A stretch of DNA of 48,254 bases from Candidatus Woesebacteria bacterium. GTDB lineage: Bacteria > Patescibacteriota > Microgenomatia > UBA8517 > UBA10165. Positions 1,146 to 38,380 of this stretch are shown one piece after another; the stretch's first letter is position 1; each line of letters begins with the position of its first letter. The stretch covers positions 1-48,254 of the forward strand of contig NZCP01000012.1 of NCBI GenBank assembly GCA_002686465.1, in the 5' to 3' direction. A program made the translations under genes and the position numbers. The notes beneath the pieces were generated by a model, which saw only the letters and a list, made by a program, of their open reading frames with translations, searched no databases and was not told where the DNA came from.

Positions 1146-1541
1146 TTACTTACTACCTTTAGCTGAATCTAAGTACGATTGTAGCATAACAGAGGCTGCA
1201 AATGCATCTTCGAGAACCCGCCGTTTTTTTTGTGGTAGGCCTGCCTCTATCGCAAGCGTTTGTGCATCTTGGGTGGTTAATGTTTCATCCCATGTTTCTA
1301 TTGGAACTTTAAGATGCTTTTCGAGCTCTTGGACAAATTCTGTCTGCTCATCTGCTATATTGCCCTCGGCTATACCAACAATCACCTTTTCTACCTCTTC
1401 CTCTTTTACTACCTGAACGATTTTCTCTATTGCATCTTGCACAGAGTTAACCTTGACAACTTTTAATGGGTCTGCCAACTTCCCTTCTGCCACCGCAATA
1501 CCAATCTTTGCTCTGCCATAATCAACCCCTAATATCTTCAT
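1146..1541 (-). CDS. ruvX: Putative pre-16S rRNA nuclease / Holliday junction resolvase-like RuvX (YqgF)
   Basis: N-terminus MKILGVDYGRAKIGIAVAE is the YqgF signature. Length is 131 aa, and it sits in the classic position next to alaS/mltG. Confidence 0.9.
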   Translation of the reverse strand: MKILGVDYGRAKIGIAVAEGKLADPLKVVKVNSVQDAIEKIVQVVKEEEVEKVIVGIAEGNIADEQTEFVQELEKHLKVPIETWDETLTTQDAQTLAIEAGLPQKKRRVLEDAFAASVMLQSYLDSAKGSK

Positions 1542-2212
1542 ATTTGACTAGGCGGTACAAGCCTCCCTCTCACAACCAGTCTTTTCAGGTATGTCCCCGG
1601 AGGGACGCAGGTAATCAAAGTAAGATAAGAGTCATCGTATCTTTGCTCAAGAACTTGGACGTCGGTCGGTCTTACTTCAAACATTTCCTCAATTCTAAAA
1701 CTGTAAGTAATACCATCATATTCTAGTTTTACGATGTTACCCTTCTCAACGGTCGGCAAAGTAGAAAAGATAGATAGATAATTCTCGGGGTCAAAAAGTT
1801 GAGGCAAGGTCGAGTGCCCAAAAATGACTGTGTTTCCGGGTCGACCCGGAAGCGCAGTCCCTTGGTAATGAATGAGACTCTCGGCAAGATCATCTCCTCC
1901 AATTTCTACACTTGCACCATCAATCTTAAGACCTGGAATAGAAAGATTGTAATAGTTAACTTTAGAAGGGGTGTCGTCTAGACCCGGAGACCCAACAAAC
2001 CAATTCCTCGCTTTGGTCAAATTTAATGGGTAGGCTTCAGTAGTACCTCTATTACTACCTGTTGAAATCGGCGAAACAAGTTCCTCGCGCAAAGTCAGAT
2101 GCGTTGCGGCAAAAAGTTCGTAGCTCAAAATTGGCCAACCGGCATTTACTAGAAGAACCAGGCCTATTACAACCAAACCCAAAGAAACTACTCTTGAAAT
2201 TTTTCCCTTCAC
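1538..2212 (-). CDS. Sortase family transpeptidase
   Basis: N-terminal TM segment, VIFGHST (catalytic His), LTLITCVPPG (TLxTC catalytic Cys) and VVRGRL (Arg). It has 4-nt overlaps with both neighbours. Confidence 0.85.
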   Translation of the reverse strand: MKGKISRVVSLGLVVIGLVLLVNAGWPILSYELFAATHLTLREELVSPISTGSNRGTTEAYPLNLTKARNWFVGSPGLDDTPSKVNYYNLSIPGLKIDGASVEIGGDDLAESLIHYQGTALPGRPGNTVIFGHSTLPQLFDPENYLSIFSTLPTVEKGNIVKLEYDGITYSFRIEEMFEVRPTDVQVLEQRYDDSYLTLITCVPPGTYLKRLVVRGRLVPPSQI

Positions 2213-28252: not shown

Positions 28253-28840
28253 ATGCCTATGGCTGCCCCGAAAAAGAAAAATATCAACTTGCTAGTCCAA
28301 GAGGGATTTGAGCATACACCCCTTGGCAAAGCCCTAAACTGGCTCCTCTCGGCTGGAAGGGTCATTGTTGTATTAACTCAGCTTGTTGTAATTGCAGCCT
28401 TTTTGTCGAGGTTCTGGCTTGATAGGCAATTAACTGACCTAAACGAAGAAAATACTCTCCGCAAGGTCCAAATAGAAGCTCTTGGGTCTTTTGAATCGAA
28501 CTTTCGGCAAACCCAAAAAAGACTTGCTGTTTACAAAGAGCTCGATACAGTAAAAACTGACGCAGGAGGAATAGTCAAAGAGGTAGCCTCTCTCTTGCCA
28601 GCCGGGGTTTCCTTATCCAGCATCTCCGTCTCTGACGAAAAATTAATCCTAGATGGAATTGCATTGTCCGAACAGGGTCTTGCCGGCTTCATAAAAGCAC
28701 TGGAGGGCACAGCACAATTCCAGAGCCCCACATTAACCGAAGTCTCCTTGGAAACCACAGGTCAACAAGTGATTAAGTTTTCGATTCGAGCGGTTTTAAC
28801 CGGCAACGAAGAAAGGAACCAAGATGGCAACAAGAGTTAA
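28253..28840 (+). CDS. PilN-like type IV pilus assembly protein
   Basis: N-terminal KKKNINLLVQE (INLLP-type PilM-binding motif), one TM segment, a coiled-coil and a C-terminal alpha/beta domain. Confidence 0.65.
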   Translation: MPMAAPKKKNINLLVQEGFEHTPLGKALNWLLSAGRVIVVLTQLVVIAAFLSRFWLDRQLTDLNEENTLRKVQIEALGSFESNFRQTQKRLAVYKELDTVKTDAGGIVKEVASLLPAGVSLSSISVSDEKLILDGIALSEQGLAGFIKALEGTAQFQSPTLTEVSLETTGQQVIKFSIRAVLTGNEERNQDGNKS

Positions 28841-29486
28841 CCCTCAACGACACCACGCTAGATATAGCCGATATTTTAGACGGCTGGTAGACAAGTATGA
28901 ACGGAGTCCTCAAGTAAGAACTAGTATTAGCTTACTACTTACCCTTTTTGCGATATCGTTCTTTACTATTTTTGCCCTTCGTCCAACAATAATTACAATC
29001 CTTGATCTTTTCGCAAACATCCGCTCCCAAGAAGAAACTTTAGAAAAACTTGACCAAAAAGTTGCAAATTTGAACAAAGCCCAAGAGGTGTGGAGACAAG
29101 AGGAAAAAAGAAGGTTGCTACTCGGCCAAGCTCTACCAACTGAAGCAGAACCAGACCATTACTTAAGACAGATTGAGGGACTAACAGCAAGACATGGAAT
29201 TGCGCTACATTTTTTTAGGATGGATAAGATTTTATTGTTAGGCGAAGAAGAAAAACAAACCACCAAAAAAAGTACTGGCTCTACGACTAATACCAAAAGC
29301 TTTAAGGTAGTGTTTTCTGTTTCTGGAGATTATTCTTCTTTGATTTCTCTCCTTGAAGAACTTGAAGAGTTGCGTAGAATCATAAAGATAGAGTCTCTTT
29401 CGTTTGGAGCTGGAAACGAAGGCCAGGGAGAATTATTGTTGCTAACAATCGCAGGTGAAGTGTCGTACTATGAAAGTGACAAATAA
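28824..29486 (+). CDS. PilO-like type IV pilus assembly protein
   Basis: Basic N-terminus, TM segment (ISLLLTLFAISFFTIFAL), a coiled-coil (EETLEKLDQKVANLNKAQEVW) and a C-terminal domain. It overlaps the pilN-like gene by 17 nt. Confidence 0.55.
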   Translation: MATRVNPQRHHARYSRYFRRLVDKYERSPQVRTSISLLLTLFAISFFTIFALRPTIITILDLFANIRSQEETLEKLDQKVANLNKAQEVWRQEEKRRLLLGQALPTEAEPDHYLRQIEGLTARHGIALHFFRMDKILLLGEEEKQTTKKSTGSTTNTKSFKVVFSVSGDYSSLISLLEELEELRRIIKIESLSFGAGNEGQGELLLLTIAGEVSYYESDK

Positions 29487-29498
29487 TAGGCTCTAGCC

Positions 29499-29831
29499 AT
29501 GCCAAGGAAGAAAAGATCTAATATTACTGTCTTTGCAGTACTCGCCACAGTTACCATTCTGGCGTGGATCGCCTCTGATGTTTATAGAAGATTGACGGCA
29601 GCTGACCCACAAGTAATTCCTGTCGCTGTTATTTCTCCTCTAACACCTACCTTGGACGCAGAAACTCTCAGCACAATAGAGAGGAAGGACTTTTTGACTG
29701 AGCAGGAAATTTCTCTCTTCGTACCAACGGGAAAAAGTGCACCGAAGGCGACACCTTCGCCAGCTGGCGAACCAGAGGCAACACCCTCCTCATCAGAAGA
29801 GAGCGAGTCTGAATCTCTGGGCGAGCAGTAA
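29499..29831 (+). CDS. Small TM-anchored protein with an acidic/Ser-Pro tail, function unknown
   Basis: 110-aa ORF with an N-terminal TM segment ITVFAVLATVTILAWIA. It occupies the position of PilP in classical pilMNOP operons, but no similarity was seen. Confidence 0.5.
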   Translation: MPRKKRSNITVFAVLATVTILAWIASDVYRRLTAADPQVIPVAVISPLTPTLDAETLSTIERKDFLTEQEISLFVPTGKSAPKATPSPAGEPEATPSSSEESESESLGEQ

Positions 29832-29840
29832 ACAAATATC

Positions 29841-31217
29841 ATGATTAAACAACATAAACTACCAACAATACTCGGAATCCTGCTTCTTATTGTGGGTGTT
29901 GCTGCCGGAGTATTTTTGGTACAGCGAGAGCAACTCTTTAAAACCTCGGCATCTCCTGAAGAAACCCCACAGCAAGTGCGGATTACCAACATCTCCGACA
30001 ACAGTTTTACAGTTTCTTGGGTAACAGACAAGGCAACTGCTGGATTTATCTCATACGGAAAGTCGCAGGTAAAAGAATTGGTTGCACAACAAGCATCCTC
30101 GCTTGCAAGTTCCTCTTTTGTTCATCACGTCACGGCAGGCAATCTCGACCCGGAGACAGCCTATCTTTTTGAGATCGGTTCAGGAACTAATACTTTCGAT
30201 AGCAATGGTCAACCATATAAAATTCAAACTGCTCCCGTTGGCGCCATTCCGCCCCTTCCCGACGTAGTGTTTGGAAAAGTTAACAATTCTTCCGGAACAC
30301 CAGCTCGGGGGGCAATTGTTTATATAACTGTACCAGGAGTAACACCACTCTCGGTACTAACAGACAGCAAAGGTGGATGGACCGTACCTTTATCAAACGC
30401 GCGGAGCAGTAACCTCACCGGTTACGCTTCATACGACAGCAAAAAAACACCGATAGAAATCCTTGTTCAGGCTGGAGGAGGACAACTTGCAACCGCTAAG
30501 GTTTTAACAAAAGCCGCCCACCCAGTTCCTGAGATAACACTTTCCGAAAACCATGACTTCACAGATGTTGAACCCTTAGATGGAGACCAACTTCCTACCT
30601 CCACATTTGATTTGCCAGAAGATACTCTTGATTCATCATCCTCTTCTTCAAGGTTCTCAGTAGAAGATGATGTCACAGAAACCACAGAGTCCACGTCACA
30701 AGTCAAACTGACAACACCGTCTGAAAGTGAATCAATAAATACAAATAAACCCCAGTTTTCTGGGACCGGAACTCCAGGGACACCCTTCACAATTACTGTT
30801 GAATCACCAACGACTTACTCTGATGAGGTAGTAGTCGGAACAAGTGGGAGTTGGAAATGGACACCTCCTGAAATACTTGAACCGGGAGACCATACAATAA
30901 CAATCGCGTGGAAAAACGAATCCGGGCAAACAGTAGAAACCAAAAGAGCTTTTACAGTTCTTGCAGCAGGAGAAAGTGACTTGCCATCTTTTTCGGCTAG
31001 CCCTTCGGCTACCGAGGCAACACCTTCGCCAACACCTAGTCCGAAAGCTACACCAAGCCCAACACCATCCCCTTCCCCATCTCCACGAATCAGCATTCCT
31101 TCCACAGAATCTGGCGTACCTGTATCAGGAAACTTGACACCAATGTTAGGAAGCATAATAATGGGTCTAGTACTAATTCTGGTTGGAATATTTTTGCCAA
31201 GAACAAAGGTATTCTAG
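29841..31217 (+). CDS. Surface protein: signal-anchor, FN3/PAP-N-like domain, carboxypeptidase-regulatory-like domain, Ig-like domain, PS/PT linker, sortase-type C-terminal signal
   Basis: VRITNISDNSFTVSWVTD...YLFEIGSG, VFGKVNNSSGTPARGAIVYI, and GTGTPGTPFTITV...SGSWKWTP. The C-terminus is VPVSG-NLTPMLGSIIMGLVLILVGIFL-PRTKVF. Confidence 0.7.
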   Translation: MIKQHKLPTILGILLLIVGVAAGVFLVQREQLFKTSASPEETPQQVRITNISDNSFTVSWVTDKATAGFISYGKSQVKELVAQQASSLASSSFVHHVTAGNLDPETAYLFEIGSGTNTFDSNGQPYKIQTAPVGAIPPLPDVVFGKVNNSSGTPARGAIVYITVPGVTPLSVLTDSKGGWTVPLSNARSSNLTGYASYDSKKTPIEILVQAGGGQLATAKVLTKAAHPVPEITLSENHDFTDVEPLDGDQLPTSTFDLPEDTLDSSSSSSRFSVEDDVTETTESTSQVKLTTPSESESINTNKPQFSGTGTPGTPFTITVESPTTYSDEVVVGTSGSWKWTPPEILEPGDHTITIAWKNESGQTVETKRAFTVLAAGESDLPSFSASPSATEATPSPTPSPKATPSPTPSPSPSPRISIPSTESGVPVSGNLTPMLGSIIMGLVLILVGIFLPRTKVF

Positions 31218-31239
31218 TCGTGTATAAAAGCCTGCCTAA

Positions 31240-33126
31240 ATGGATGATAATAAAAACCCTGGGTTAAATCCAGTAGCCCCTCAGCAAGATCCGCCGCAAG
31301 GAAATCCGGACCAGCCAAGTGTTGACCAACCGTCAAGTCCGACTCCTCCTCCCTCAGTTGGTATCGATGTTCCTCCGCCACCTCCTCCTGCAGAATCAGG
31401 CGGCCAACCTCCGTCTCCAGCATCGCCTCCTCCCTCACCACCTAGTTCTGACTCGCCACCCCCGGAGTCTGCACCAAATGTTGACCCAGCAAGTGTTCCC
31501 TCGGATGCACCTGGAGATAGTCCTCCAAACGATTCGGGAGACTCCGGAAATTCCGGGCTACCGCCAGTCATTCCATCTCAGCCTAAAAAGCCAAAGGGTA
31601 AAATCATAGCCGCGATCGCTGCTCTTGTGTTACTTGTCGTCTCAATCCCAGCAGGGATCTTCTTAGTCCAGCAAAGCCAAGAACTGCGCGAAAAAGCAGC
31701 AGGACCAGACTGGCAATGTACTACCACCGGTGATAAGTACGCCACTGAAACAGATTGTAGGACAGTCTGTCCTTCTGCTGGAGCCTGTTTATTTATTGGA
31801 GATACACAACCCCCTGGGTCCTCTAATTGTGAATGCATGAACGGTGCATGGCGCACGCCGCTTGGCGCGAGTCTTGTTTGTGAAAGAGATGGACAGGCGT
31901 GTTCCACAGGGACAACCCCACCAGATGGACAAGTAGATGAATGTCCAACCCCAGGGGCATCTTGCGGAACATGTGACGCAATCGACAGCTGTAGTGATGG
32001 TTCCGCTTGCTCATCGGGTCATAGATATTGTGAGTCGCAGGCAACTGGTAATGTATGTGGTTCTTGTGTTAAAGAAGTAGATAATTGCTCTACGCAATGT
32101 TCGACAGGTGGCACCCCACCTGATGGTATTTCTTCGGAATCAGACGGACAAGGAGGGTGTTGTGATGCTGGCGCTGCTGCGAACAGCAGCCAAGGCTGTC
32201 GCACTACAGGAGGATTCAACGAGGTCTGTGATATCTCAAATGGTGCTTGTCAAAGCGGTCTTTCTTGCCGAAGTCTATCTGGATGTGGACAAGACAGTGA
32301 CTGTGGACCAGGAAACAAGTGTATCAATCAACAATGTCAGGGAACTGGTGGGCCAGCTCCCACTTCAACACCACCTACCCGAAGTGTATCCCCAACGGCT
32401 ACGATTTCTGGGCCGTCAGGAGGGTTTGTTGGAAACGATCTCATCTATACCGCCATTGCCAGAGGACAAAATCTACAATGGAGCAGAATATATTGGGCTA
32501 AAACAACAGATGACATAACAGATGGAAGTGTGTGGACAGAAATTGCAGAAAACCACGTAAACAGAACAGACGGTAAAGTCTGCGAAAGCAAAACACAGTG
32601 TACAACAACAGGTATATTTAAACCCACTGCGAATGGCAGTTATTACCTGGCTGCTAGCGCGTCTGATGCCGACGGGGGTCCTTGCAGTGGAAACCCAAGA
32701 TACGATTCTGCTCCTGGTTGGGCAGATTGTGGTGGGACCAATGACGTCATAACAGTCAACGTTGTCTCAGACCTTGCAACCGCCGCAAACTGCACAGAGC
32801 TTCAGGTATTGGATAGCAACGGAGGAGTTGTCCAAGACCTTTCGCAAATTTCTATTGGCGATACCGTAACATTCCAAACATTTTGTTTCTCTACTGACGC
32901 AAGTGATGACCTTGATAAAATAAGATTTCGAGTGATCGGACCTTCGAGATCTGCGTCTGATTCCGACAAGGCGGTCACCAGGGCCCCAGAAAAGGAAGAC
33001 AGTACAGCAGCAGCAATTAGCTATCGTTTCTTTAAAGCCTCCCATGATATGACGATTACTGAATCAGGCGCCTATAAAGTTCAAACGTGGGGACATGCAC
33101 CCAAGAGAGGTTGGATAGGAAAATGA
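31240..33126 (+). CDS. Type II membrane protein: ~125-aa Pro-rich N-terminal tail, TM segment, 28-Cys module, two beta-rich domains
   Basis: 628-aa ORF. The TM segment is IIAAIAALVLLVVSIPAGIFLV. The Cys-rich segment is encoded at 31717-32337. The next domain is a paralogue of one in the following gene. Confidence 0.75.
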   Translation: MDDNKNPGLNPVAPQQDPPQGNPDQPSVDQPSSPTPPPSVGIDVPPPPPPAESGGQPPSPASPPPSPPSSDSPPPESAPNVDPASVPSDAPGDSPPNDSGDSGNSGLPPVIPSQPKKPKGKIIAAIAALVLLVVSIPAGIFLVQQSQELREKAAGPDWQCTTTGDKYATETDCRTVCPSAGACLFIGDTQPPGSSNCECMNGAWRTPLGASLVCERDGQACSTGTTPPDGQVDECPTPGASCGTCDAIDSCSDGSACSSGHRYCESQATGNVCGSCVKEVDNCSTQCSTGGTPPDGISSESDGQGGCCDAGAAANSSQGCRTTGGFNEVCDISNGACQSGLSCRSLSGCGQDSDCGPGNKCINQQCQGTGGPAPTSTPPTRSVSPTATISGPSGGFVGNDLIYTAIARGQNLQWSRIYWAKTTDDITDGSVWTEIAENHVNRTDGKVCESKTQCTTTGIFKPTANGSYYLAASASDADGGPCSGNPRYDSAPGWADCGGTNDVITVNVVSDLATAANCTELQVLDSNGGVVQDLSQISIGDTVTFQTFCFSTDASDDLDKIRFRVIGPSRSASDSDKAVTRAPEKEDSTAAAISYRFFKASHDMTITESGAYKVQTWGHAPKRGWIGK

Positions 33127-34322
33127 CAATGAAGAAAAAAATCATAACAGGGATCGTCCTTGTTTCAACTCTAGTTTTGGGAACCATAGCTGTTATCACT
33201 GCACTAAAGCTACGTGAGGTAGAGACGCCAACTGCGCCGAGCTCTAGGCCAGCAGCAGACACGCTACCAACACCCTTGGAGATTGGCTTCACTGTCGACC
33301 CAGACGGATCTCTGTCCGCAGAAGTAAGAGGGCCAACCGAGGCAGAAATTGGACAATCGCGAACCTATACAGCAACAGCCAGCGGATTGGCAATTGAATT
33401 CGTACAAATCTTCTGGGCCGAGTCGGATGACGATTTAGCAGACACAAACTCTTGGACGCTAATGGGAGAAAATACTAGTTGTGGCAGTAGTGCTTGTGCC
33501 ACAACCGGCCAGTTTGAGGCAACAAAAGCAGGGACTTATACTATTGTCGTTAACGCAAAAGATTCGACACCTGGTGCAATATGTAGTGGAAATCCCGCCA
33601 ATATCCCTGGGTGGGCAGCATGCGGATCAGACGACGAAATAACCCTTGTGGTCTCCGAGACAACAGCAGAGTCTTGTGTTAACAACTTTACCCTGACAAA
33701 AACTGCTAGCCCTAAATCTGTTGATCCAGGAGGGGAAGTCACCTATACAATGACTATAGAGAGGACCTCAACCACTCCAAGTTCTGTGACTCTTGCAAGT
33801 ATCCAGGACCTGATGATTGGTTCCTATGTAAAGGGATCAGTTGTGGGAATTGGTGAACCCAAGATCGTATCTGAAAAGCCTGGCGATCCTAACTTTAGTA
33901 CCGACTTAGTTTGGGACGAAGACAGAAGCTTCGATCCAGAAGAAAAGATGACATTCAGCATCAAGGCTCACTTGCCAACAAAAGTCAATATCGGAGGCGA
34001 TAATACCAATAGCTTTTATGTGGTCCAAGCTGACCCTAGGTCTGGATGTTCCGTGCTTGAAGAAGTCAGTATCAATACACCCGATGACGACACGGAAGAA
34101 ACTGAGACAGAAGAGACTGAGACAACCACTTCGGAAACCGAAAAAGAAACAAGCTCAGACTCTTCGTCCGGGGCAAAAGGAGGAACAACACCTACTGCCT
34201 CACCATCCCCTTTACCTGCTGCTCAAGCTGAATTGCCAGAAGCGGGTATTAATATCCCAAGTGTAGTTGGGGCTCTTGGAGGACTACTTCTTCTCTTCCT
34301 AGGATTTGCACTTATCCTCTAA
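33123..34322 (+). CDS. Surface protein: signal-anchor, shared CSGNP/GWA-CG domain, DUF11-like repeat domain, acidic T/E linker, LPEAG sorting signal
   Basis: ATG 33123 overlaps the upstream stop (ATGA), with AGGA upstream. The DUF11 signature is LTKTASPKSVDPGGEVTYTMTI. The C-terminus is ELPEAG-INIPSVVGALGGLLLLFLGFALIL. Confidence 0.75.
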   Translation: MTMKKKIITGIVLVSTLVLGTIAVITALKLREVETPTAPSSRPAADTLPTPLEIGFTVDPDGSLSAEVRGPTEAEIGQSRTYTATASGLAIEFVQIFWAESDDDLADTNSWTLMGENTSCGSSACATTGQFEATKAGTYTIVVNAKDSTPGAICSGNPANIPGWAACGSDDEITLVVSETTAESCVNNFTLTKTASPKSVDPGGEVTYTMTIERTSTTPSSVTLASIQDLMIGSYVKGSVVGIGEPKIVSEKPGDPNFSTDLVWDEDRSFDPEEKMTFSIKAHLPTKVNIGGDNTNSFYVVQADPRSGCSVLEEVSINTPDDDTEETETEETETTTSETEKETSSDSSSGAKGGTTPTASPSPLPAAQAELPEAGINIPSVVGALGGLLLLFLGFALIL

Positions 34323-35557
34323 AGTCCATTGATCAACAAAGGGGTCCACCAGTCGGGTACGGGAATGCCTGTCCACACGGGATAGTGGATAATAAACGAC
34401 AAAATTACCAAAACCAAATAACTACTAACGAATATTCTCCCCCTCACTGACCCTTCCTTCCATAGCCTTTCTAATAACCAAGCAAGAAGTAAGATTAAAA
34501 AAGGAATCGCCGGTAGATAATGGTAGAAAAACATTATCCTGGGCGAGGCCACCCAAGGAAGAAACATGATTAAATAACCGGCAAGCAAGAAAAGAGTTAG
34601 TCTGTCCCTTCTCTTGACAAAGTAGGCAAGCCCGGCAAGAAAAGCTGCTAATCCGCCCCAAAGGATAATTGGGTTCCCCATTAGATAAATATTTGAAACC
34701 TTCTCCCCTATATCTTCAGTAAACGCAAAAATCGGTCGCCTGCCCAAAGGCCACTCTAAAGCCTGTGAAGAGTAAGGGTGTGTTGCCTCAAGATTAGTTT
34801 GATACCACCAGGTTTGTTGATGCAGTTCTACAAACTGGTTGACAGTATGTCCTTGCAAGAAAAATTGTGTATAGGAAGCAAAATAAACAAAGATGGGAAT
34901 TACAAAAAAAGACAGAATTCCAAGTACAACCTTTTTAGGTTTTAAGTTGCCTCGAAGTTCCTCCGCAGACCATAGGAGTGTCAATCCTCCTAGCGCAAAA
35001 ATGCCTGACCATTTTGTGGCAATTGCCAATCCCAAAATAATGCCCGTCTGCCAAATCGGTCGCTTTGAAAGGTAAAAGTAAAAAGCAAGAATAACCCAAG
35101 CCGTCAAAAAAATATCATTCATGGTAATGCGAGACATTGTGAGAGAAAGACCACTAAGACCCCAGAGAGATAATGCTACAAGACCAATGAAACGAGATCT
35201 CATGACATTTTTCCCAAAAAGGTAAAGCAAAATACCAATTCCTAAGCCTGCCAAAACTCCAGGAAAGCGCCAGAAAAACGGCGTATCCCCAAATATTTTT
35301 ATTGATCCTGCTTGTATCAACTTCCCAATGGGCGGATGAAGCCACTCATAAGCAAATCCTTCGGGCGCATTATTCCACCACTCATACCCCTTCGGGTCCC
35401 CCTCTGCATAAACCTGGGCAGTAAATGCATGGTAGACCTCATCAAAATAGTATGTGTCTGGGAAACCAAGCCTCAAGAGGCGGGAGACAATTATAAAGGT
35501 AAGTATTACTATTAAAAGTGTTGAGTGCTTTGAAAAAAGGCTCTTTAGAAATTTCAT
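34319..35557 (-). CDS. GT39-family (PMT-like) phospholipid-carrier-dependent protein mannosyltransferase
   Basis: First-loop motif YYFDEVYHAFTAQ (the DE motif), then a polytopic TM profile. Length is 412 aa. Confidence 0.75.
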   Translation of the reverse strand: MKFLKSLFSKHSTLLIVILTFIIVSRLLRLGFPDTYYFDEVYHAFTAQVYAEGDPKGYEWWNNAPEGFAYEWLHPPIGKLIQAGSIKIFGDTPFFWRFPGVLAGLGIGILLYLFGKNVMRSRFIGLVALSLWGLSGLSLTMSRITMNDIFLTAWVILAFYFYLSKRPIWQTGIILGLAIATKWSGIFALGGLTLLWSAEELRGNLKPKKVVLGILSFFVIPIFVYFASYTQFFLQGHTVNQFVELHQQTWWYQTNLEATHPYSSQALEWPLGRRPIFAFTEDIGEKVSNIYLMGNPIILWGGLAAFLAGLAYFVKRRDRLTLFLLAGYLIMFLPWVASPRIMFFYHYLPAIPFLILLLAWLLERLWKEGSVRGRIFVSSYLVLVILSFIIHYPVWTGIPVPDWWTPLLINGL

Positions 35558-35574: not shown

Positions 35575-37287
35575 ATGTTTTCTGTTAAAAGTGTGCTTTC
35601 TACCCTGAGGCGAAACAAAGGCATTGTCTTTTTTTCACTAACTATTATTTTTTGGTCAATTGTTTTCTTTCTGATCTGGTCTCGCATGTTAGTCTTAGAA
35701 AAGGACGGACTATACGCTGGTTGGGTAAACGTCTGGGGTGATTGGTCTTCGCATATCTCATACACCACTTACCTTGCCACCCAAAACATTTTCCCCCCTC
35801 AGTTTCCAATTCTGTCCGGACACGTTCTATCTTACCCTTTTGGAGCCGACTTTGTGTCAGCTGTCTTACTAAGATTGGGAGTATCCCTTGTTCCAGCAAT
35901 GTTGATACCAAGTTTTCTTCTTTCTCTTGGGGTTGTTGTAACTCTTTTTCGTTTTTACAAACATCTCCTCGTCTTCCCACGAGCCGCAGCGTTAGGAGTG
36001 TTCCTTTTTCTCTTTAATGGAGGGCTCGGCTTTCTTTGGTTTTTAAGTGACCTCCACCTTGGCGGATGGGGAATAATATCTCGCCTACCTCGAGAATATA
36101 CGCACATCGAGCAACCAGCAAATATCGAGTGGCTCAACATCATCACTTCTGAGCTTGTTCCGCAAAGGGGGTTTTTGTTAGGTTTGCCAATTGCCCTTTT
36201 AATTCTCACTTTTCTTTGGCAAATATACCGAGGGTCTATAAAAACGCGCCTACTACACATTTTTGTAGCAGGTAGCGCAACAGGGCTTCTTACAATTATT
36301 CATATGCACTCATTCCTTGTAGTTTCAAGTGTTGCCTTGTGGACATTTTTTTTAATAACTCTCCGAGAGAAGAGTTTGAAAGTTGCTCTTTGGTATTTCA
36401 TACCACAGGCAGTATTGGCTGCAACGATCATCCAAGTCTTCTTCCCTCAACTTGGAGCCAGCTTCACCGCTTTTAATCCTGGGTGGCTGGCTGTGCAAAC
36501 CAGGGAAGGTCAACTTCTATTTGAGAATATGAATGGATTTGCCATTTTGGGTAACAGTATTATTTTTTGGATCAAAAATGCAGGAATTATGCTGTTCCTT
36601 CCTGTTGTATACGCAGTCTGGATTTTTCTGATGATGAAGAAAAAGTCTGATAGCCGACATTTATTAATTTGGTCTCTACCCCTTTTTGGGATATTCATAA
36701 TCGCCAATCTTTGGACATTCCAACCCTACACCTGGGACAACACAAAGTTTCTTACCTATTGGTGGGTTGCAGCGTCTGGCTTTGGAGCACTTTTACTTGA
36801 TCGGCTTCTGTCGGGAAATTTTGGTTTAAGGTTTGCAAGTATCATTCTTTTCTTTTTTGCAATTTTTGCAGGCGCACTAGACGTTCTTCAGATAACACAA
36901 TACGACCAACAAAAACTACGTATGCTATCGCAAGAAGACCTAGAACTCGCCGCGTGGGTTAAAAAGCAAACACCAAAGGACAGCATCTTCCTAACAGCAG
37001 ACAATCACGACAATCCTATTGCAATGCTCACTGGGCGCAGTGTTGTACTTGGTTTTCAAGGATGGCTTTGGACCTTTGGTATCGATACCGGAAAAAGACA
37101 AGCACAAGTAGAAAGTATATATGCCGGCCGGGATGCAAACACTTTACTCTCCATCCTCGACGTAAACTATGTAGTTATAGGAAGTAAAGAAAGGATACGC
37201 TATTCTGACTTAAATGAGGAGTTTTTTGAAACAGGTTATCCTATGGTGTATCAACTTGGAGAAACCAGGATTTTTACTGTCCCTTAA
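35575..37287 (+). CDS. Polytopic membrane protein, probable GT-C-fold glycosyltransferase, with a C-terminal soluble domain
   Basis: 570-aa ORF with at least 10 hydrophobic segments. A first-loop acidic/aromatic motif is WGDWSSHISY. The last ~110 aa are hydrophilic. It is divergent from the GT39 gene. The function is inferred. Confidence 0.4.
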   Translation: MFSVKSVLSTLRRNKGIVFFSLTIIFWSIVFFLIWSRMLVLEKDGLYAGWVNVWGDWSSHISYTTYLATQNIFPPQFPILSGHVLSYPFGADFVSAVLLRLGVSLVPAMLIPSFLLSLGVVVTLFRFYKHLLVFPRAAALGVFLFLFNGGLGFLWFLSDLHLGGWGIISRLPREYTHIEQPANIEWLNIITSELVPQRGFLLGLPIALLILTFLWQIYRGSIKTRLLHIFVAGSATGLLTIIHMHSFLVVSSVALWTFFLITLREKSLKVALWYFIPQAVLAATIIQVFFPQLGASFTAFNPGWLAVQTREGQLLFENMNGFAILGNSIIFWIKNAGIMLFLPVVYAVWIFLMMKKKSDSRHLLIWSLPLFGIFIIANLWTFQPYTWDNTKFLTYWWVAASGFGALLLDRLLSGNFGLRFASIILFFFAIFAGALDVLQITQYDQQKLRMLSQEDLELAAWVKKQTPKDSIFLTADNHDNPIAMLTGRSVVLGFQGWLWTFGIDTGKRQAQVESIYAGRDANTLLSILDVNYVVIGSKERIRYSDLNEEFFETGYPMVYQLGETRIFTVP

Positions 37288-38380
37288 TTTCCCTCGTAAA
37301 GTCCCCAGCTGGACACTCCTTGCCCAATAACAAACACTCAACCCACTCTCGGGTTGGCTCCCAATCTCCGTCGGTAGGTACTAATACCCACTGGTTATCA
37401 TGCTTGGCAGACAACGGAGGATTTATTAACAATCCTAGGCTCTCTACCCCGTCATTTAAAACCTCTGAGCGAATATTTCCACCTTGGGCACTTAATGCTA
37501 AATGCACAAAGGATGCAAAACTTGATTCAGGTATATCTGTTTCCACCGACCGTCCCATAATTTCAACAGACCGACTTACTCTTGTAGGTTCTAGAAAAAA
37601 CCAAGGGGAAAGCATTTTTTCCTTAACCGCCAATATGATCTTTTGTTGCCGCATGCTTCTGGCAAAGTCGGTTCCCTCATCTCCCTCAGCGTTCCTTGAA
37701 CGAGCAAATTTGAGTGCCCTACTACCATCTAAATGTTGTCTGCCCTCCTCAAAGGAAATTGATTCATATCGACAAAGTACTTCCGAATCACCTTCACAGT
37801 CTGCTACCTCGCGTCCAGGAATAGGATAGCGTTCATCTTTAAAACCTCTGTCGACGATTACATCAACGCCTCCCAAAAGATCAATCATCTCTATAAAACC
37901 ACTGAAAGAAACAACCACAACATAGTGAACCGGCTGGCCAACAATTTCGGAGGTAAAGTCCCGCGCCCATTCCATCCCCACACCATCCGCCCTGTTTCCA
38001 TAATAATAAGCGCTATTAATTTTAGCGCGCATTTGGGGAATCCAAACATCTCGGGGAATAGAAAGGAGCAGAACCTGGTTGGTTTTGGCATCAATTGAAG
38101 CAAAGATAATAGTATCAGTTAAGCCTGATGGTTCATTTTTTGGACCACCAAGGCCTAACACTAGAACATTTGTCCTTCCATTATGGGAACGAAGATCGCT
38201 TGCTGTGCTGGTAAAAAAATTCTTGGCTATATTGAATGTTTGGGGGAGATAAGGTAAGATCGGGCGCAAAAAAAGCAAAAGGATTACTAAAAAAACCGTT
38301 AGGAAAATAATTGCCTTTTTGTGGATTTTGATATATTGCTTGATCAACAGCATATCTCTACTATGATACAATTTTCGCAT
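37274..38380 (-). CDS. LytR-CpsA-Psr (LCP) family cell-wall glycopolymer transferase
   Basis: TNVLVLGLGG...GLTDTIIFASIDAKTNQVLLLSIPRDVWIP and FARSRN...DFARSMRQQ. An alternative start is ATG 38353. Confidence 0.85.
   Translation of the reverse strand: MRKLYHSRDMLLIKQYIKIHKKAIIFLTVFLVILLLFLRPILPYLPQTFNIAKNFFTSTASDLRSHNGRTNVLVLGLGGPKNEPSGLTDTIIFASIDAKTNQVLLLSIPRDVWIPQMRAKINSAYYYGNRADGVGMEWARDFTSEIVGQPVHYVVVVSFSGFIEMIDLLGGVDVIVDRGFKDERYPIPGREVADCEGDSEVLCRYESISFEEGRQHLDGSRALKFARSRNAEGDEGTDFARSMRQQKIILAVKEKMLSPWFFLEPTRVSRSVEIMGRSVETDIPESSFASFVHLALSAQGGNIRSEVLNDGVESLGLLINPPLSAKHDNQWVLVPTDGDWEPTREWVECLLLGKECPAGDFTREIKGQ
38364..38372 (+). promoter_or_regulatory. Extended -10 (TGaTACAAT) 6 nt upstream of the uvrD/pcrA ATG
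   Basis: tgatacaat-tttcgc-ATG. It lies inside the 5' end of the divergent LCP ORF. Confidence 0.5.

What the first reader, a model, noticed from the sequence alone, without database searches (positions are those of the whole stretch)
28253..34322. PilN/PilO-led six-gene surface cluster with no pilM, secretin, ATPase or pilin in sight
Seen: six co-directional, tightly spaced or overlapping plus-strand genes.
1. A PilN-like protein with an N-terminal NINLL motif.
2. A PilO-like protein.
3. A 110-aa TM-anchored protein with a Ser/Pro/Glu tail, in the PilP position.
4. A 458-aa protein with FN3, carboxypeptidase-regulatory-like and Ig-like domains and a C-terminal sorting signal.
5. A 628-aa type II membrane protein with a Pro-rich cytoplasmic tail, a 28-Cys module and beta domains.
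6. A 399-aa protein sharing a domain with gene 5, plus a DUF11 repeat and an LPEAG sorting signal.

The junction of genes 5 and 6 is an ATGA overlap.

Established: PilM-N-O(-P) form the inner-membrane alignment platform of type IV pili, and the PilN N-terminal INLLP motif docks PilM.

Inference: in this probably monoderm, host-dependent lineage the PilN/O platform appears wired to large wall-anchored adhesin-like proteins instead of PilP/PilQ. This could be an undescribed surface-appendage or attachment apparatus combining a T4P alignment complex with sortase-anchored components.
Basis: partly seen in the sequence, partly recalled or inferred. Interest (0 to 1): 0.72.

Follow-up and report, generated by a model that had tools for sequence, protein, structure and literature searches.

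The report
PilN/PilO operon with wall-anchored partners
A six-gene operon conserved across the uncultured bacterial class Microgenomatia joins two type IV pilus alignment proteins (PilN, PilO) to four lineage-specific envelope proteins, two of which carry sortase-type wall-anchoring signals; it is probably how these bacteria, which have a wall but no outer membrane, tie their pilus machine to the wall, though this is untested.

Summary
There are six tightly packed plus-strand genes at 28253-34322: PilN and PilO (both above Pfam cut-offs), a 110-aa bitopic protein, a 458-aa FN3/Ig-like protein, a 628-aa type II membrane protein with a 28-Cys module, and a 399-aa LPEAG protein. No pilM, ATPase, pilin or secretin lies in the window.

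In about 85 Microgenomates genomes the order murJ | rpsT-pilN-pilO-g3-g4-g5like-g6like | PMT recurs, with median gaps of -4 to +6 nt inside the block. The block survives rearrangements of its flanks.

Two things temper the "new apparatus" reading. PilN keeps its PilM-docking (I/V)NLL motif, so it most likely serves an ordinary type IV pilus machine encoded elsewhere. The whole 20-kb region is also syntenic in this lineage, so adjacency alone is weak evidence.

The best reading (about 0.45) is a lineage-specific membrane-to-wall module of the pilus machine, functionally replacing PilP/PilQ. The main rivals are cargo of a pilus-assisted wall-crossing route, unrelated co-transcribed surface proteins, or an independent apparatus.

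I found no description of this operon in the papers searched. It is a new variant of a known kind, of moderate interest.

The parts
28253..28840 (+). g1, PilN (195 aa): cytoplasmic N-terminus, one TM (about residues 31-49), PilN ectodomain at 109-181
   Evidence: Pfam PF05137, 53.7 bits against cut-off 22.8. Family profile hits M. xanthus PilN 3jc8_N, E 1.4e-7. 67 homologues at 34-66% identity.
28283..28294 (+). INLL motif of PilN (residues 11-14), the PilM-docking peptide
   Evidence: Conserved as (I/V)NLL, followed by P in the more distant members, in most of the 67 homologues; 11 have ISL/ITL. That this motif docks PilM is established knowledge (PilM:PilN1-12 structure 5eou, listed).
28824..29486 (+). 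g2, PilO (220 aa): one TM (about residues 34-52), coiled coil, PilO ectodomain at 67-205
   Evidence: Pfam PF04350, 36.7 bits against cut-off 22. Family profile hits M. xanthus PilO 3jc8_O, E 2.1e-6. Overlaps g1 by 17 nt.
29499..29831 (+). g3 (110 aa): short bitopic protein with TM at 7-25, conserved ecto-motif PL(T/N)PxLD...L..iE.R (PLTPTLD at 29637-29657), then a Ser/Pro/Glu tail. It sits in the PilP position but is not a PilP homologue.
   Evidence: No Pfam or NCBIfam hit. 74 orthologues found directly after pilO; the core is about 65 aa and the tail is variable or absent. Median gap to pilO is -4 nt.
29841..31217 (+). g4 (458 aa): N-terminal TM or signal helix (8-28, PTILG...GVFLVQ), FN3-like domain (43-129), second beta-sandwich (142-240), Big_13 Ig-like domain (288-373), Pro/Thr/Ser linker (382-427), then VPVSG (31116-31130), TM and the basic tail PRTKVF, which together form a sortase-type signal
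   Evidence: Pfam. AlphaFold model pLDDT 83.8. Foldseek finds FN3/Ig bead strings such as contactins, SiiE, ice adhesin and SlaB. 290 family members, named only 'Ig-like/FN3 domain-containing/hypothetical'. C-terminal xPx[STA]G motif in 61 of 74 orthologues.
31240..33126 (+). g5 (628 aa): type II membrane protein. Pro-rich acidic cytoplasmic tail (1-118), TM plus LVQQSQELREKA (122-153), 28-Cys module (160-366), domain shared with g6 (384-518), C-terminal Ig-like domain (518-628).
   Evidence: Composition, TM and Cys positions. No family hit. Only 7 close homologues. Positional equivalents share the Pro-rich tail, the TM motif and the C-terminal ~93-aa domain.
33123..34322 (+). g6 (399 aa): N-terminal anchor, domain shared with g5 (63-185), weak DUF11-type repeat (193-220), acidic Thr-rich linker, LPEAG (34233-34247) and a hydrophobic tail
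   Evidence: BLASTP g5 against g6: 39% identity, E 2e-19. NCBIfam hits are below cut-off. Positional equivalents in other genomes are mostly 140-250-aa proteins with a Ser/Thr/Pro-rich region and LPx(A/S)G plus TM.
34319..35557 (-). Convergent PMT-family glycosyltransferase. It is a conserved neighbour and a possible O-glycosylase of the Ser/Thr/Pro-rich linkers of g3, g4 and g6. The association is inferred.
   Evidence: Pfam PMT, PMT_2 and PMT_4TMC. Found directly downstream of the block in most loci.
1538..2212 (-). Sortase gene, the presumptive enzyme for the g4 and g6 sorting signals. It lies 26 kb from the cluster.
   Evidence: Pfam Sortase, 86.4 bits against cut-off 26.6.

Best explanation
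The six genes form one operon that is conserved throughout Microgenomatia. It encodes the membrane-to-wall part of the type IV pilus (T4P) machine of these outer-membrane-less bacteria.

Proposed roles:
- PilN and PilO form the usual bitopic heterodimer. The cytoplasmic INLL peptide of PilN docks a PilM that is encoded elsewhere, together with pilB/C/T/D and the pilins.
- g3 is a minimal bitopic protein with a conserved PLxPxLD ecto-peptide. It takes the adaptor position that PilP holds in diderms.
- g4 is a stalk of three beta-sandwich domains whose C-terminus is attached to peptidoglycan by sortase. Either alone or through its conserved N-terminal helix, it links the platform to the wall.
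- g5 has a Pro-rich cytoplasmic tail, a TM helix homologous to that of g4, and a variable Cys-rich/Ig-like ectodomain.
- g6 is a small Ser/Thr/Pro-rich wall-anchored protein with an LPxAG signal.
- g5 and g6 are the fast-evolving outer components. The Ser/Thr/Pro linkers are probably O-glycosylated by the adjacent PMT-type transferase.

Together g3-g6 would do what PilP/PilQ/TsaP/FimV do in diderms: fix and align the machine at the site where the fibre crosses the wall.

Shown: gene identities, motifs, domain architecture, sorting signals, operon structure and its conservation. Inferred: every physical interaction, dependence on the T4P machine, wall tethering and glycosylation.
For: - PilN and PilO score above Pfam cut-offs, and their family profiles hit PilN/PilO of the M. 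xanthus T4P machine.
- The (I/V)NLL motif is kept in most of the 67 PilN homologues (11 have ISL/ITL) down to 34% identity, so selection maintains a PilM-type partner.
- No second copy of this PilN type appears per genome among 80 species-level genomes.
- Literature: T4P genes including PilM are near-universal in CPR bacteria (PMC6744442; PMC12206443). The complete Microgenomates genome Ch65 lists PilA, minor pilins, PilD, B, T, C and M at one locus, with PilN/O not listed (PMC7143001).
- Gene order pilN-pilO-g3-g4-(g5like)-(g6like) is found in about 85 genomes of Blackburn-, Woese- and Shapirobacteria and Microgenomatus. It is also found when seeded from g4.
- Median intergenic gaps are 2, -4, -4, 3 and 6.5 nt inside the block, against 62 nt between rpsT and pilN.
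- The block stays intact where its flanks are rearranged: an upstream insertion in L024 and an inverted murJ-rpsT unit in L088.
- All six products are single-pass envelope proteins.
- g4 and g6-like proteins carry conserved xPx[STA]G or LPx[AS]G motifs followed by a TM, and a sortase gene is in the window.
- g4 and g5 share a conserved Gly-rich TM helix, consistent with docking inside the membrane.
Against: - No pilM, pilB, pilC, pilD or pilin lies within 10 kb of the block in any of 88 loci or in the 48-kb window. The link to a pilus machine therefore rests on the PilN motif and on literature, not on genome-resolved co-occurrence.
- I could not inspect a complete genome to show that this is the only pilN/pilO pair.
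- The whole 20-kb region is syntenic in this lineage, so conserved adjacency is weak evidence of function.
- g4 is missing in two Woesebacteria loci, L070 and L072.
- g5 and g6 evolve fast, which suits exposed surface proteins or adhesins better than core machine parts.
- The folds of g4 are generic.
- No interaction was tested.
Confidence: 0.45

Rival explanations
1. Cargo rather than machine. g4-g6 are surface proteins whose passage through the wall is assisted by the T4P machinery acting like a type II secretion system. They are co-transcribed with pilN/pilO for that reason and are then fixed to the wall by sortase.
For: In the monoderm Clostridium perfringens, efficient release of the matrix proteins BsaC and BsaA needs pilN and pilO among other T4P genes, and a sortase gene and LPXTG proteins sit at that locus (bioRxiv 10.1101/2024.11.04.621531). 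g5 and g6 are variable, Cys-rich or Ig-like and Ser/Thr/Pro-rich, as exposed surface proteins are. In some genomes further secreted proteins with the same N-terminal motif follow the block.
Against: g3 and g4 are as conserved as PilO, which is unusual for cargo. g5 has a large cytoplasmic tail and no cleavable signal. Sec signal or anchor sequences already explain export across the membrane. There are no functional data for CPR bacteria.
Confidence: 0.15
2. Neighbours only. pilN/pilO belong to the T4P machine, and g3-g6 are unrelated wall or surface proteins (adhesins, wall spacers). They share a transcript because gene order is frozen in these small genomes.
For: The entire region IF2-NusA-DnaJ-DnaK-GrpE-HrcA-MurJ | rpsT-...-| PMT-LytR-UvrD is syntenic across the class, including pairs with no functional link such as rpsT-pilN. 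The neighbours murJ, PMT, LytR and FemAB are wall-biogenesis genes. A promoter-like site scoring 11 of 12 lies just before g5.
Against: Start/stop overlaps and gaps of a few nt run from pilN to g4, against 62 nt after rpsT. Flank rearrangements leave the block intact. All members are single-pass envelope proteins, and g4/g5 have homologous TM helices.
Confidence: 0.2
3. Independent apparatus. PilN/PilO have been co-opted as the membrane platform of a distinct sortase-dependent surface structure. It might use a non-canonical actin-fold partner such as the PilM/FtsA-like, Baseplate_J-containing membrane protein encoded next to the sortase at 2209-4485.
For: pilN/pilO are never next to pilM in 88 loci. 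The operon contains two sortase substrates. ORF 2209-4485 has a confidently modelled ASKHA domain (pLDDT 91.9) for which P. aeruginosa PilM gives the best TM-scores (0.52-0.54). It also has a TM and an ectodomain, and it overlaps the sortase gene by 4 nt. CPR bacteria are known to build non-T4P pili from Ig-like subunits (Pam pili, bioRxiv 10.64898/2026.03.03.709456).
Against: No polymerising subunit is identifiable: there is no sortase-pilin motif and no donor-strand feature was tested. The ASKHA hits include PPX/GppA, FtsA and ROK kinases with equal or better E-values, and Pfam PilM models do not match. The Pam operon has a different content and location and no PilN/O. Retention of the INLL motif is explained more simply by a canonical PilM.
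Confidence: 0.12

Closest known systems
T4aP alignment subcomplex PilM-PilN-PilO-PilP(-PilQ) of diderms (P. aeruginosa, M. xanthus, T. thermophilus)
   Same: The PilN and PilO families, bitopic topology, N-terminal INLL(P) PilM-docking peptide, a small third gene directly after pilO, and a following gene for an envelope-spanning component.
   Different: pilM is not adjacent. g3 is a ~65-aa-core bitopic protein, not a lipoprotein with a beta-sandwich HR domain. There is no secretin; instead there are FN3/Ig stalk proteins with sortase-type signals.
Type IV pili of monoderms (Clostridium perfringens, Streptococcus sanguinis; Saccharibacteria TM7x T4P-1/T4P-2)
   Same: A monoderm envelope, PilM/N/O without PilP/PilQ, and a pilus that must cross peptidoglycan.
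   Different: In those organisms pilM-pilN-pilO are contiguous with pilB/pilC and the pilins (PMC12206443). No conserved wall-anchored partners are described there. Here pilN-pilO are detached and fused into an operon with g3-g6.
T2SS assembly platform GspL-GspM-GspC, and T4P-assisted secretion in C. perfringens
   Same: GspM gives weak hits to g2. The concept is the same: a PilNO-type platform coupled to export of envelope proteins. In C. perfringens pilN/pilO are needed for release of matrix proteins, with a sortase at the locus.
   Different: There is no GspC HR/PDZ protein, no GspL fusion, and no evidence that g4-g6 are secreted substrates.
Sortase-anchored surface proteins and sortase pili of Gram-positive bacteria
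   Same: A C-terminal LPXTG-like motif, hydrophobic segment and (in g4) basic tail; Ig-like/FN3 bead architecture; Pro/Thr-rich wall-spanning linker; a sortase gene in the genome.
   Different: The motif is degenerate ([VTIL]Px[TSA]G in g4, LPx[AS]G in g6). No pilin motif, E-box or CnaB domain was detected. The sortase is not in the operon. Linkage to PilN/PilO is not a feature of sortase systems.
Pam pili of CPR bacteria (PamA/B/C/D/E/T/R; bioRxiv 10.64898/2026.03.03.709456)
   Same: CPR-specific and reported in Saccharimonadia and Microgenomatia. Built from Ig-like/FN3-like proteins with signal peptides. Several components carry a C-terminal TM helix. Paired cysteines are present.
   Different: A different operon near the ATP synthase genes, with chaperone-like PamC/D and donor-strand exchange, and no PilN/PilO. 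No sequence similarity to g3-g6 was seen. Fold-level comparison of g5/g6 was not done.

Membership tests
PilN (PF05137) | Sequence match to the PilN ectodomain profile above the curated cut-off | tested here: met
   53.7 bits against cut-off 22.8, E 2.2e-14. The family profile hits PilN of the M. xanthus machine, 3jc8_N, E 1.4e-7.
PilN (PF05137) | Bitopic topology with a short cytoplasmic N-terminus carrying the INLLP-type PilM-binding motif | tested here: met
   INLL at residues 11-14 and a TM at about 31-49. (I/V)NLL is kept in most of the 67 homologues; 11 have ISL/ITL.
PilN (PF05137) | Encoded next to pilM and physically bound to PilM | tested here: not met
   Adjacency is not met in the window or in any of 88 loci. 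Binding is not testable with these tools.
PilO (PF04350) | Sequence match above the curated cut-off, bitopic topology, encoded directly after pilN | tested here: met
   36.7 bits against cut-off 22. The profile hits 3jc8_O, E 2.1e-6. TM at about 34-52. Overlaps pilN by 17 nt.
PilP | Lipoprotein or bitopic protein with a C-terminal beta-sandwich (HR) domain that binds the secretin N0 domain | tested here: not met
   g3 has no family hit at E up to 10. Its conserved part is a TM plus about 40 residues, and many orthologues end at 64-72 aa. There is no secretin in the window.
Complete type IV pilus system | PilB-type ATPase, PilC platform, prepilin peptidase and class III signal-peptide pilins in the same genome | not testable with these tools
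   None were found in the 48-kb window or within 10 kb in 88 loci. The rest of the genome is not available. The literature reports them at a separate locus in a Microgenomates genome (PMC7143001).
Sortase substrates (LPXTG-type cell-wall sorting signal) | C-terminal LPXTG-like pentapeptide, hydrophobic segment and positively charged tail, with a sortase in the genome | tested here: inconclusive
   g4 has VPVSG, a TM and PRTKVF. g6 has LPEAG and a TM but no basic tail. The motif is conserved as xPx[STA]G in 61 of 74 g4 orthologues and as LPx[AS]G in 54 downstream proteins. A sortase gene lies at 1538-2212. Cleavage and wall linkage were not tested, and the first motif position is non-canonical in g4.
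Sortase-assembled pilins | Pilin motif (YPKN Lys), E-box, CnaA/CnaB isopeptide domains | tested here: not met
   No Pfam match to Cna, SpaA or Gram-positive pilin families in g4-g6. The g4 folds are FN3 and Big_13.
Pam pilus system (CPR donor-strand-exchange pili) | Two-domain pilins with a truncated Ig-like C-terminal domain and donor strand, plus FimC/PapD-like membrane-anchored chaperones in the operon | not tested
No sequence hit to any solved structure for the g5-type C-terminal domain. The operon content differs from that described.
PilM / FtsA (for ORF 2209-4485) | ASKHA actin-like fold with a groove binding the N-terminal peptide of a bitopic partner; soluble cytoplasmic protein | tested here: inconclusive
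   The fold criterion is met: pLDDT 91.9, PilM TMq 0.52-0.54, E about 1e-8. PPX/GppA, FtsA and ROK kinases score similarly, Pfam PilM/FtsA models do not match, and the protein has a TM and a Baseplate_J-like ectodomain.

The most novel reading that the evidence does not exclude
In Microgenomatia the PilN/PilO pair has left the pilus gene cluster and become the membrane platform of a separate envelope-spanning complex. That complex would be built from sortase-anchored Ig-like stalk proteins (g4, g6), a Pro-rich-tailed membrane protein (g5) and a mini-adaptor (g3). On the cytoplasmic side it might be driven or organised by the widespread PilM/FtsA-like, Baseplate_J-bearing membrane protein that is co-operonic with the sortase. 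This would be a previously unrecognised attachment or wall-organising apparatus of ultrasmall episymbiotic bacteria.
Probability: 0.12. Interest if true: 0.85.

Novelty: new variant of a known kind. Interest (0 to 1): 0.55.

Why it matters
Type IV pili are thought to be central to how CPR/Patescibacteria find and hold their hosts and take up DNA. How the fibre and its motor are fixed in an envelope that has a wall, often an S-layer, and no secretin is not known.

This operon supplies four concrete, class-wide conserved candidate proteins for that missing outer part. It also links them to sortase anchoring and probably to O-glycosylation. The question therefore becomes testable by AlphaFold-Multimer, by cryo-ET of Microgenomates-rich groundwater filtrates, and by heterologous pull-downs.

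If the independent-apparatus reading were right instead, it would be a new use of the PilN/PilO scaffold.

The operon also shows that pilN/pilO can be missed in 'T4P locus' surveys of Microgenomates because they sit after rpsT, away from pilM.

Tried and rejected
I used a PilN alignment instead and tested the reverse direction through g4 homologues.
- Regular-expression screens for the PilB/PilT Walker A (G[PS]TGSGK[ST]T) and for class III prepilin signals found nothing in 1.51 Mb of window plus loci.
- I considered g6-like N-termini (K-G-K followed by a hydrophobic stretch) as prepilin signals and rejected this. There is no G|F-T-L-x-E and no Glu5.
- Pfam at E up to 10 and NCBIfam gave nothing for g3 and g5.
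- A profile of the g5-type C-terminal domain against PDB sequences gave only chance-level antibody hits. Per-member Pfam scans gave scattered weak PKD/Big hits, so the domain is Ig-like and nothing more can be said.
- The g5 homologue search returned only 7 proteins, too few for a good model, so g5 was not modelled.
- Promoter and terminator scans were near chance level.
- Look-ups of window proteins, intended to extend the view beyond the window ends, found no record.
- A weak DivIC hit in g2 (E 0.006) raised the idea of an FtsL/DivIC-like division role. I rejected it as a coiled-coil artefact, given the PilO hits above cut-off.
- I considered the Pam pilus system as the identity of the cluster and rejected it on operon content.
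- The suspicion that ORF 2209-4485 is a PilM was only half borne out: it has the actin fold but is not a family member.

Full report
OBSERVATION

They are tightly packed. g1/g2 overlap by 17 nt, the next three gaps are 12, 9 and 22 nt, and g5/g6 share an ATGA.

g1 scores 53.7 bits on Pfam PilN (cut-off 22.8) and g2 scores 36.7 bits on PilO (cut-off 22). Profiles built from their homologues hit PilN and PilO of the Myxococcus xanthus pilus machine among all solved structures, at E 1.4e-7 and 2.1e-6.

g3 has no family hit.

g4 has an FN3-like domain (Pur_ac_phosph_N) and a Big_13 domain above cut-off, plus a weak CarboxypepD_reg hit. An AlphaFold model built on 120 sequences (pLDDT 83.8) shows an N-terminal helix, three beta-sandwich domains, a disordered Pro/Thr linker and a C-terminal helix. 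Its structural neighbours are generic bead strings such as contactin FN3 repeats, SiiE, an ice-binding adhesin and the archaeal S-layer stalk SlaB.

g5 has 32% proline in its first 125 residues, a KKPKGK stretch just before a single TM, and exactly 28 cysteines between residues 160 and 366. g5 384-518 and g6 63-185 are 39% identical, E 2e-19. g6 ends in LPEAG followed by a hydrophobic tail.

None of the other 30 ORFs of 110 aa or more in the window belongs to a PilM, PilB/T, PilC, PilD, pilin or secretin family. The context is housekeeping and wall biogenesis: AlaRS, FtsK, RNase J, PNPase, IF2, NusA, DnaJ/K, GrpE, HrcA, MurJ, S20, PMT, LytR, UvrD and two FemAB genes. There is one sortase, at 1538-2212.

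IS THE LINKAGE CONSERVED?

PilN homologues at 34-66% identity are named, where named at all, as Candidatus Blackburnbacteria or Patescibacteria. NCBI places Blackburnbacteria in the Microgenomates group.

Five independent contigs spanning that identity range all show murJ(-) | rpsT, pilN, pilO, a 91-115-aa gene, a 432-465-aa Pur_ac_phosph_N/Big_13 gene, a 440-560-aa gene without family, then usually a 146-193-aa gene (a frame-broken region with a sortase gene in L007) | PMT(-). BLASTP confirms orthology. g4 is 37-45% identical over its full length. g3 is 31-43% identical. g5 and g6 are recognisable only at their N-terminal regions, the Cys-rich module of g5 and the C-terminal tail of g6.

A scan of one genome per species (GTDB) with a PilN alignment found 175 relatives. 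The 80 loci kept come from Blackburn-, Woese- and Shapirobacteria, Microgenomatus and unnamed Patescibacteria. Across the 88 loci held (five are redundant), ORFs best matching g1, g4, g2 and g3 number 88, 87, 84 and 79. The gene order is the same nearly everywhere the contig extends far enough.

Seeding from g4 instead gives 290 family members. All 120 listed are full-length orthologues, and where named they are called only 'Ig-like', 'FN3 domain-containing' or 'hypothetical'. Two of them at 34% and 38% identity again sit directly after pilN-pilO-g3.

Inside the block the median gaps are 2, -4, -4, 3 and 6.5 nt, against 62 nt between rpsT and pilN. These gaps may be biased slightly short, because I took the first possible start codon.

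A CAVEAT ON SYNTENY

The whole 20-kb neighbourhood, from IF2 through UvrD, is conserved in these genomes. That includes pairs with no functional relation, such as rpsT-pilN. Conserved adjacency is therefore weaker evidence here than in most bacteria.

Four things partly rescue it:
- The operon-like spacing.
- All six products are single-pass envelope proteins.
- Flank rearrangements leave the block intact: a mobile-element-like insertion upstream in L024 and an inverted murJ-rpsT unit in L088.
- g4 and g5 share a homologous, glycine-rich TM helix.

Conversely, two Woesebacteria loci (L070, L072) lack g4 while keeping pilN-pilO-g3-g5like-g6like.

ANATOMY OF THE FAMILIES

PilN keeps (I/V)NLL, followed by P in the more distant members, in most of the 67 homologues, with ISL/ITL in 11. 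It also has an invariant AFLSRFWLD just after the TM.

The conserved core of g3 is only about 65 residues: a TM plus PL(T/N)PxLD...L..iE.R. The Ser/Pro/Glu tail is variable or absent. It is not a PilP.

g4 ends in [VTIL]Px[TSA]G-(N/D)LTP, a TM and a Lys/Arg tail in 61 of 74 orthologues. The small proteins after g5 end in LPx[AS]G followed by a TM, and 53 of 74 loci have at least one such protein.

The typical g6 equivalent is a 140-250-aa protein. It consists of a conserved anchor (AIFTAIRLYQLR.Q.VAP.AP.SKP.A), a Thr/Ser/Pro-rich stretch and the sorting signal. The window's g6 is an enlarged version.

g5 equivalents share the Pro-rich cytoplasmic tail, the motif GK.IATILG..LLVGG.GAGV.LVQQQQDIREKA and a ~93-aa C-terminal Ig-like domain ending in HH..LGW. 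In the window's closest relatives they also share a 65-aa Cys-rich module that stays 62-67% identical while the rest diverges.

WHERE IS THE REST OF THE PILUS?

There is no PilB Walker A motif and no class III prepilin signal anywhere in 1.51 Mb of window plus loci. I could not open a whole genome.

The literature gives three relevant points:
- T4P components including PilM are enriched and widespread in CPR bacteria and often co-localise (PMC6744442).
- pilB, pilT, pilM and pilC have homologues in most Patescibacteria classes (PMC12206443).
- In the closed Microgenomates genome Ch65 all pilus components found are at one locus: PilA, minor pilins, PilD, PilB, PilT, PilC and PilM. PilN and PilO are not among them (PMC7143001).

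Together with the retained INLL motif and the single copy of this PilN type per genome, the most economical reading is that this pilN-pilO pair is the pilus machine's own, relocated.

MECHANISM PROPOSED (confidence about 0.45)

PilN/PilO dock the cytoplasmic PilM and hence the PilB/PilC motor. g3 is a minimal adaptor in the PilP position. g4 is a three-domain stalk linked to peptidoglycan by sortase. g5 and g6 are outer, fast-evolving partners. The convergent PMT-type transferase, conserved next to the block, probably O-glycosylates the Ser/Thr/Pro linkers. The module would replace PilP/PilQ/TsaP/FimV in fixing the machine at the wall.

Only the identities, motifs, architecture and conservation are shown. 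All interactions are inferred.

RIVALS

(a) Cargo. In C. perfringens, T4P genes including pilN and pilO are needed for release of matrix proteins through the wall, with sortase and LPXTG genes at that locus. g4-g6 could likewise be clients rather than parts of the machine.

(b) Neighbours only, because of the frozen synteny.

In its favour I found that ORF 2209-4485, which overlaps the sortase gene by 4 nt, belongs to a very large family of 5118 representatives. Its ectodomain is Baseplate_J-like. Its N-terminal 280 residues fold with pLDDT 91.9 into an actin-like ASKHA domain, for which P. aeruginosa PilM gives the highest TM-scores (0.52-0.54), alongside PPX/GppA, FtsA and ROK kinases. Pfam PilM/FtsA models do not match it. 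It is a lead, not a PilM.

The recently described Pam pili of CPR bacteria are a different operon without PilN/O.

COMPARISON AND NOVELTY

PilN and PilO are ordinary family members. What is new is their detachment from pilM and their class-wide fusion into one operon with a mini-adaptor, two sortase-signal proteins and a Pro-rich-tailed membrane protein.

Six full-text searches found no description of this arrangement. Public annotations of g3-g6 are 'hypothetical' or generic domain names.

I rate it a new variant of a known kind, with interest 0.55. It is solidly real and conserved. It gives concrete candidates for the unknown wall-crossing part of CPR pili, but it has no direct evidence yet for a new mechanism.

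Noticed in passing
window 1538-4485 (- strand): ORF 2209-4485 (758 aa) overlaps the sortase gene (1538-2212) by 4 nt. It has a confidently modelled actin-like (ASKHA) cytoplasmic domain whose best TM-scores are to PilM (0.52-0.54). FtsA, PPX/GppA and ROK kinases also match. It also has a TM helix and a Baseplate_J-like ectodomain, giving a GspL-like topology. The family is very large (5118 representatives at E<=1e-3), and Pfam matches only its Baseplate_J-like ectodomain (27 of 32 members), not the N-terminal domain or the window's own copy.
   Followed up: partly
window 29862-29924 (g4) and 31603-31698 (g5); also L011 14308-15096, L017 14623-15459, L001 14673-17972: g4 and g5 share a homologous Gly-rich N-terminal TM segment followed by LVQxxQ(D/E)(I/L)R(E/K)KA. 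The same motif heads other secreted proteins just downstream in some genomes. It is unresolved whether this is a lineage-specific cleavable signal or a retained helix used for docking inside the membrane.
   Followed up: partly
window 34319-35557 (-), 35575-37287 (+), 37274-38380 (-): A PMT-family glycosyltransferase lies convergent to the operon, followed by a DUF6798 membrane protein and a LytR-CpsA-Psr ligase. All are conserved neighbours in most related loci. The Ser/Thr/Pro-rich linkers of g3, g4 and g6 (up to 75% S/T/P over 40 residues in g4) look like O-glycosylation targets.
   Followed up: no
window about 17400-40250 and loci L001-L090: The gene order IF2-NusA-DnaJ-DnaK-GrpE-HrcA-MurJ | rpsT-pilN...g6 | PMT-...-LytR | UvrD is kept across Blackburn-, Woese- and Shapirobacteria. 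This is unusually rigid synteny for proteins only 34-60% identical.
   Followed up: partly
L070 8530-10727; L072 4816-6948; L024 7296-9627; L088 693-2721: There are exceptions to the pattern. Two Woesebacteria loci lack g4. L024 has three unrelated ORFs, possibly a mobile element, in place of murJ-rpsT upstream. L088 has the murJ-rpsT unit inverted. In L024 and L088 the pilN block itself stays intact.
   Followed up: partly
window 32158-32337 (g5 residues about 307-366); P0188-P0194: A ~65-aa Cys-rich module (GGCCD.GAA.NS..GCR..GGFNEVCDISNGACQSGLSCRSLAGC..DSDCGPGNKC.N.KCE) stays 62-67% identical among g5 relatives whose other ectodomain parts are unalignable. No family hit.
   Followed up: no
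loci L010, L011, L014, L016, L019-L021 and many others: Many GTDB representative MAGs that carry this Microgenomates-type locus are titled 'uncultured Gammaproteobacteria bacterium' (binchicken co-assemblies). The titles are evidently wrong, given the gene content and the PilN/g4 orthology.
   Followed up: no
window 31134-31162 (+): The best sigma-70-like match in the region (TTGACA, 17-nt spacer, AATAAT; 11 of 12) lies inside the 3' end of g4, just upstream of g5. It may be an internal promoter for g5-g6. Overall promoter counts are only slightly above shuffles.
   Followed up: no
L001/L009 14673-20404: In one Blackburnbacteria genome the block is followed by a 1099-aa S8 peptidase/FG-GAP protein with the same N-terminal motif and by two cohesin-domain proteins. 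This suggests the region downstream of g4 is a hotspot for surface-protein genes.
   Followed up: no
window 30001-34000: G+C rises to 0.476-0.485 over g4-g6, against 0.40-0.45 elsewhere. The likely cause is Pro/Ala/Gly/Ser/Thr-rich coding rather than foreign origin, since the orthologues are syntenic.
   Followed up: no
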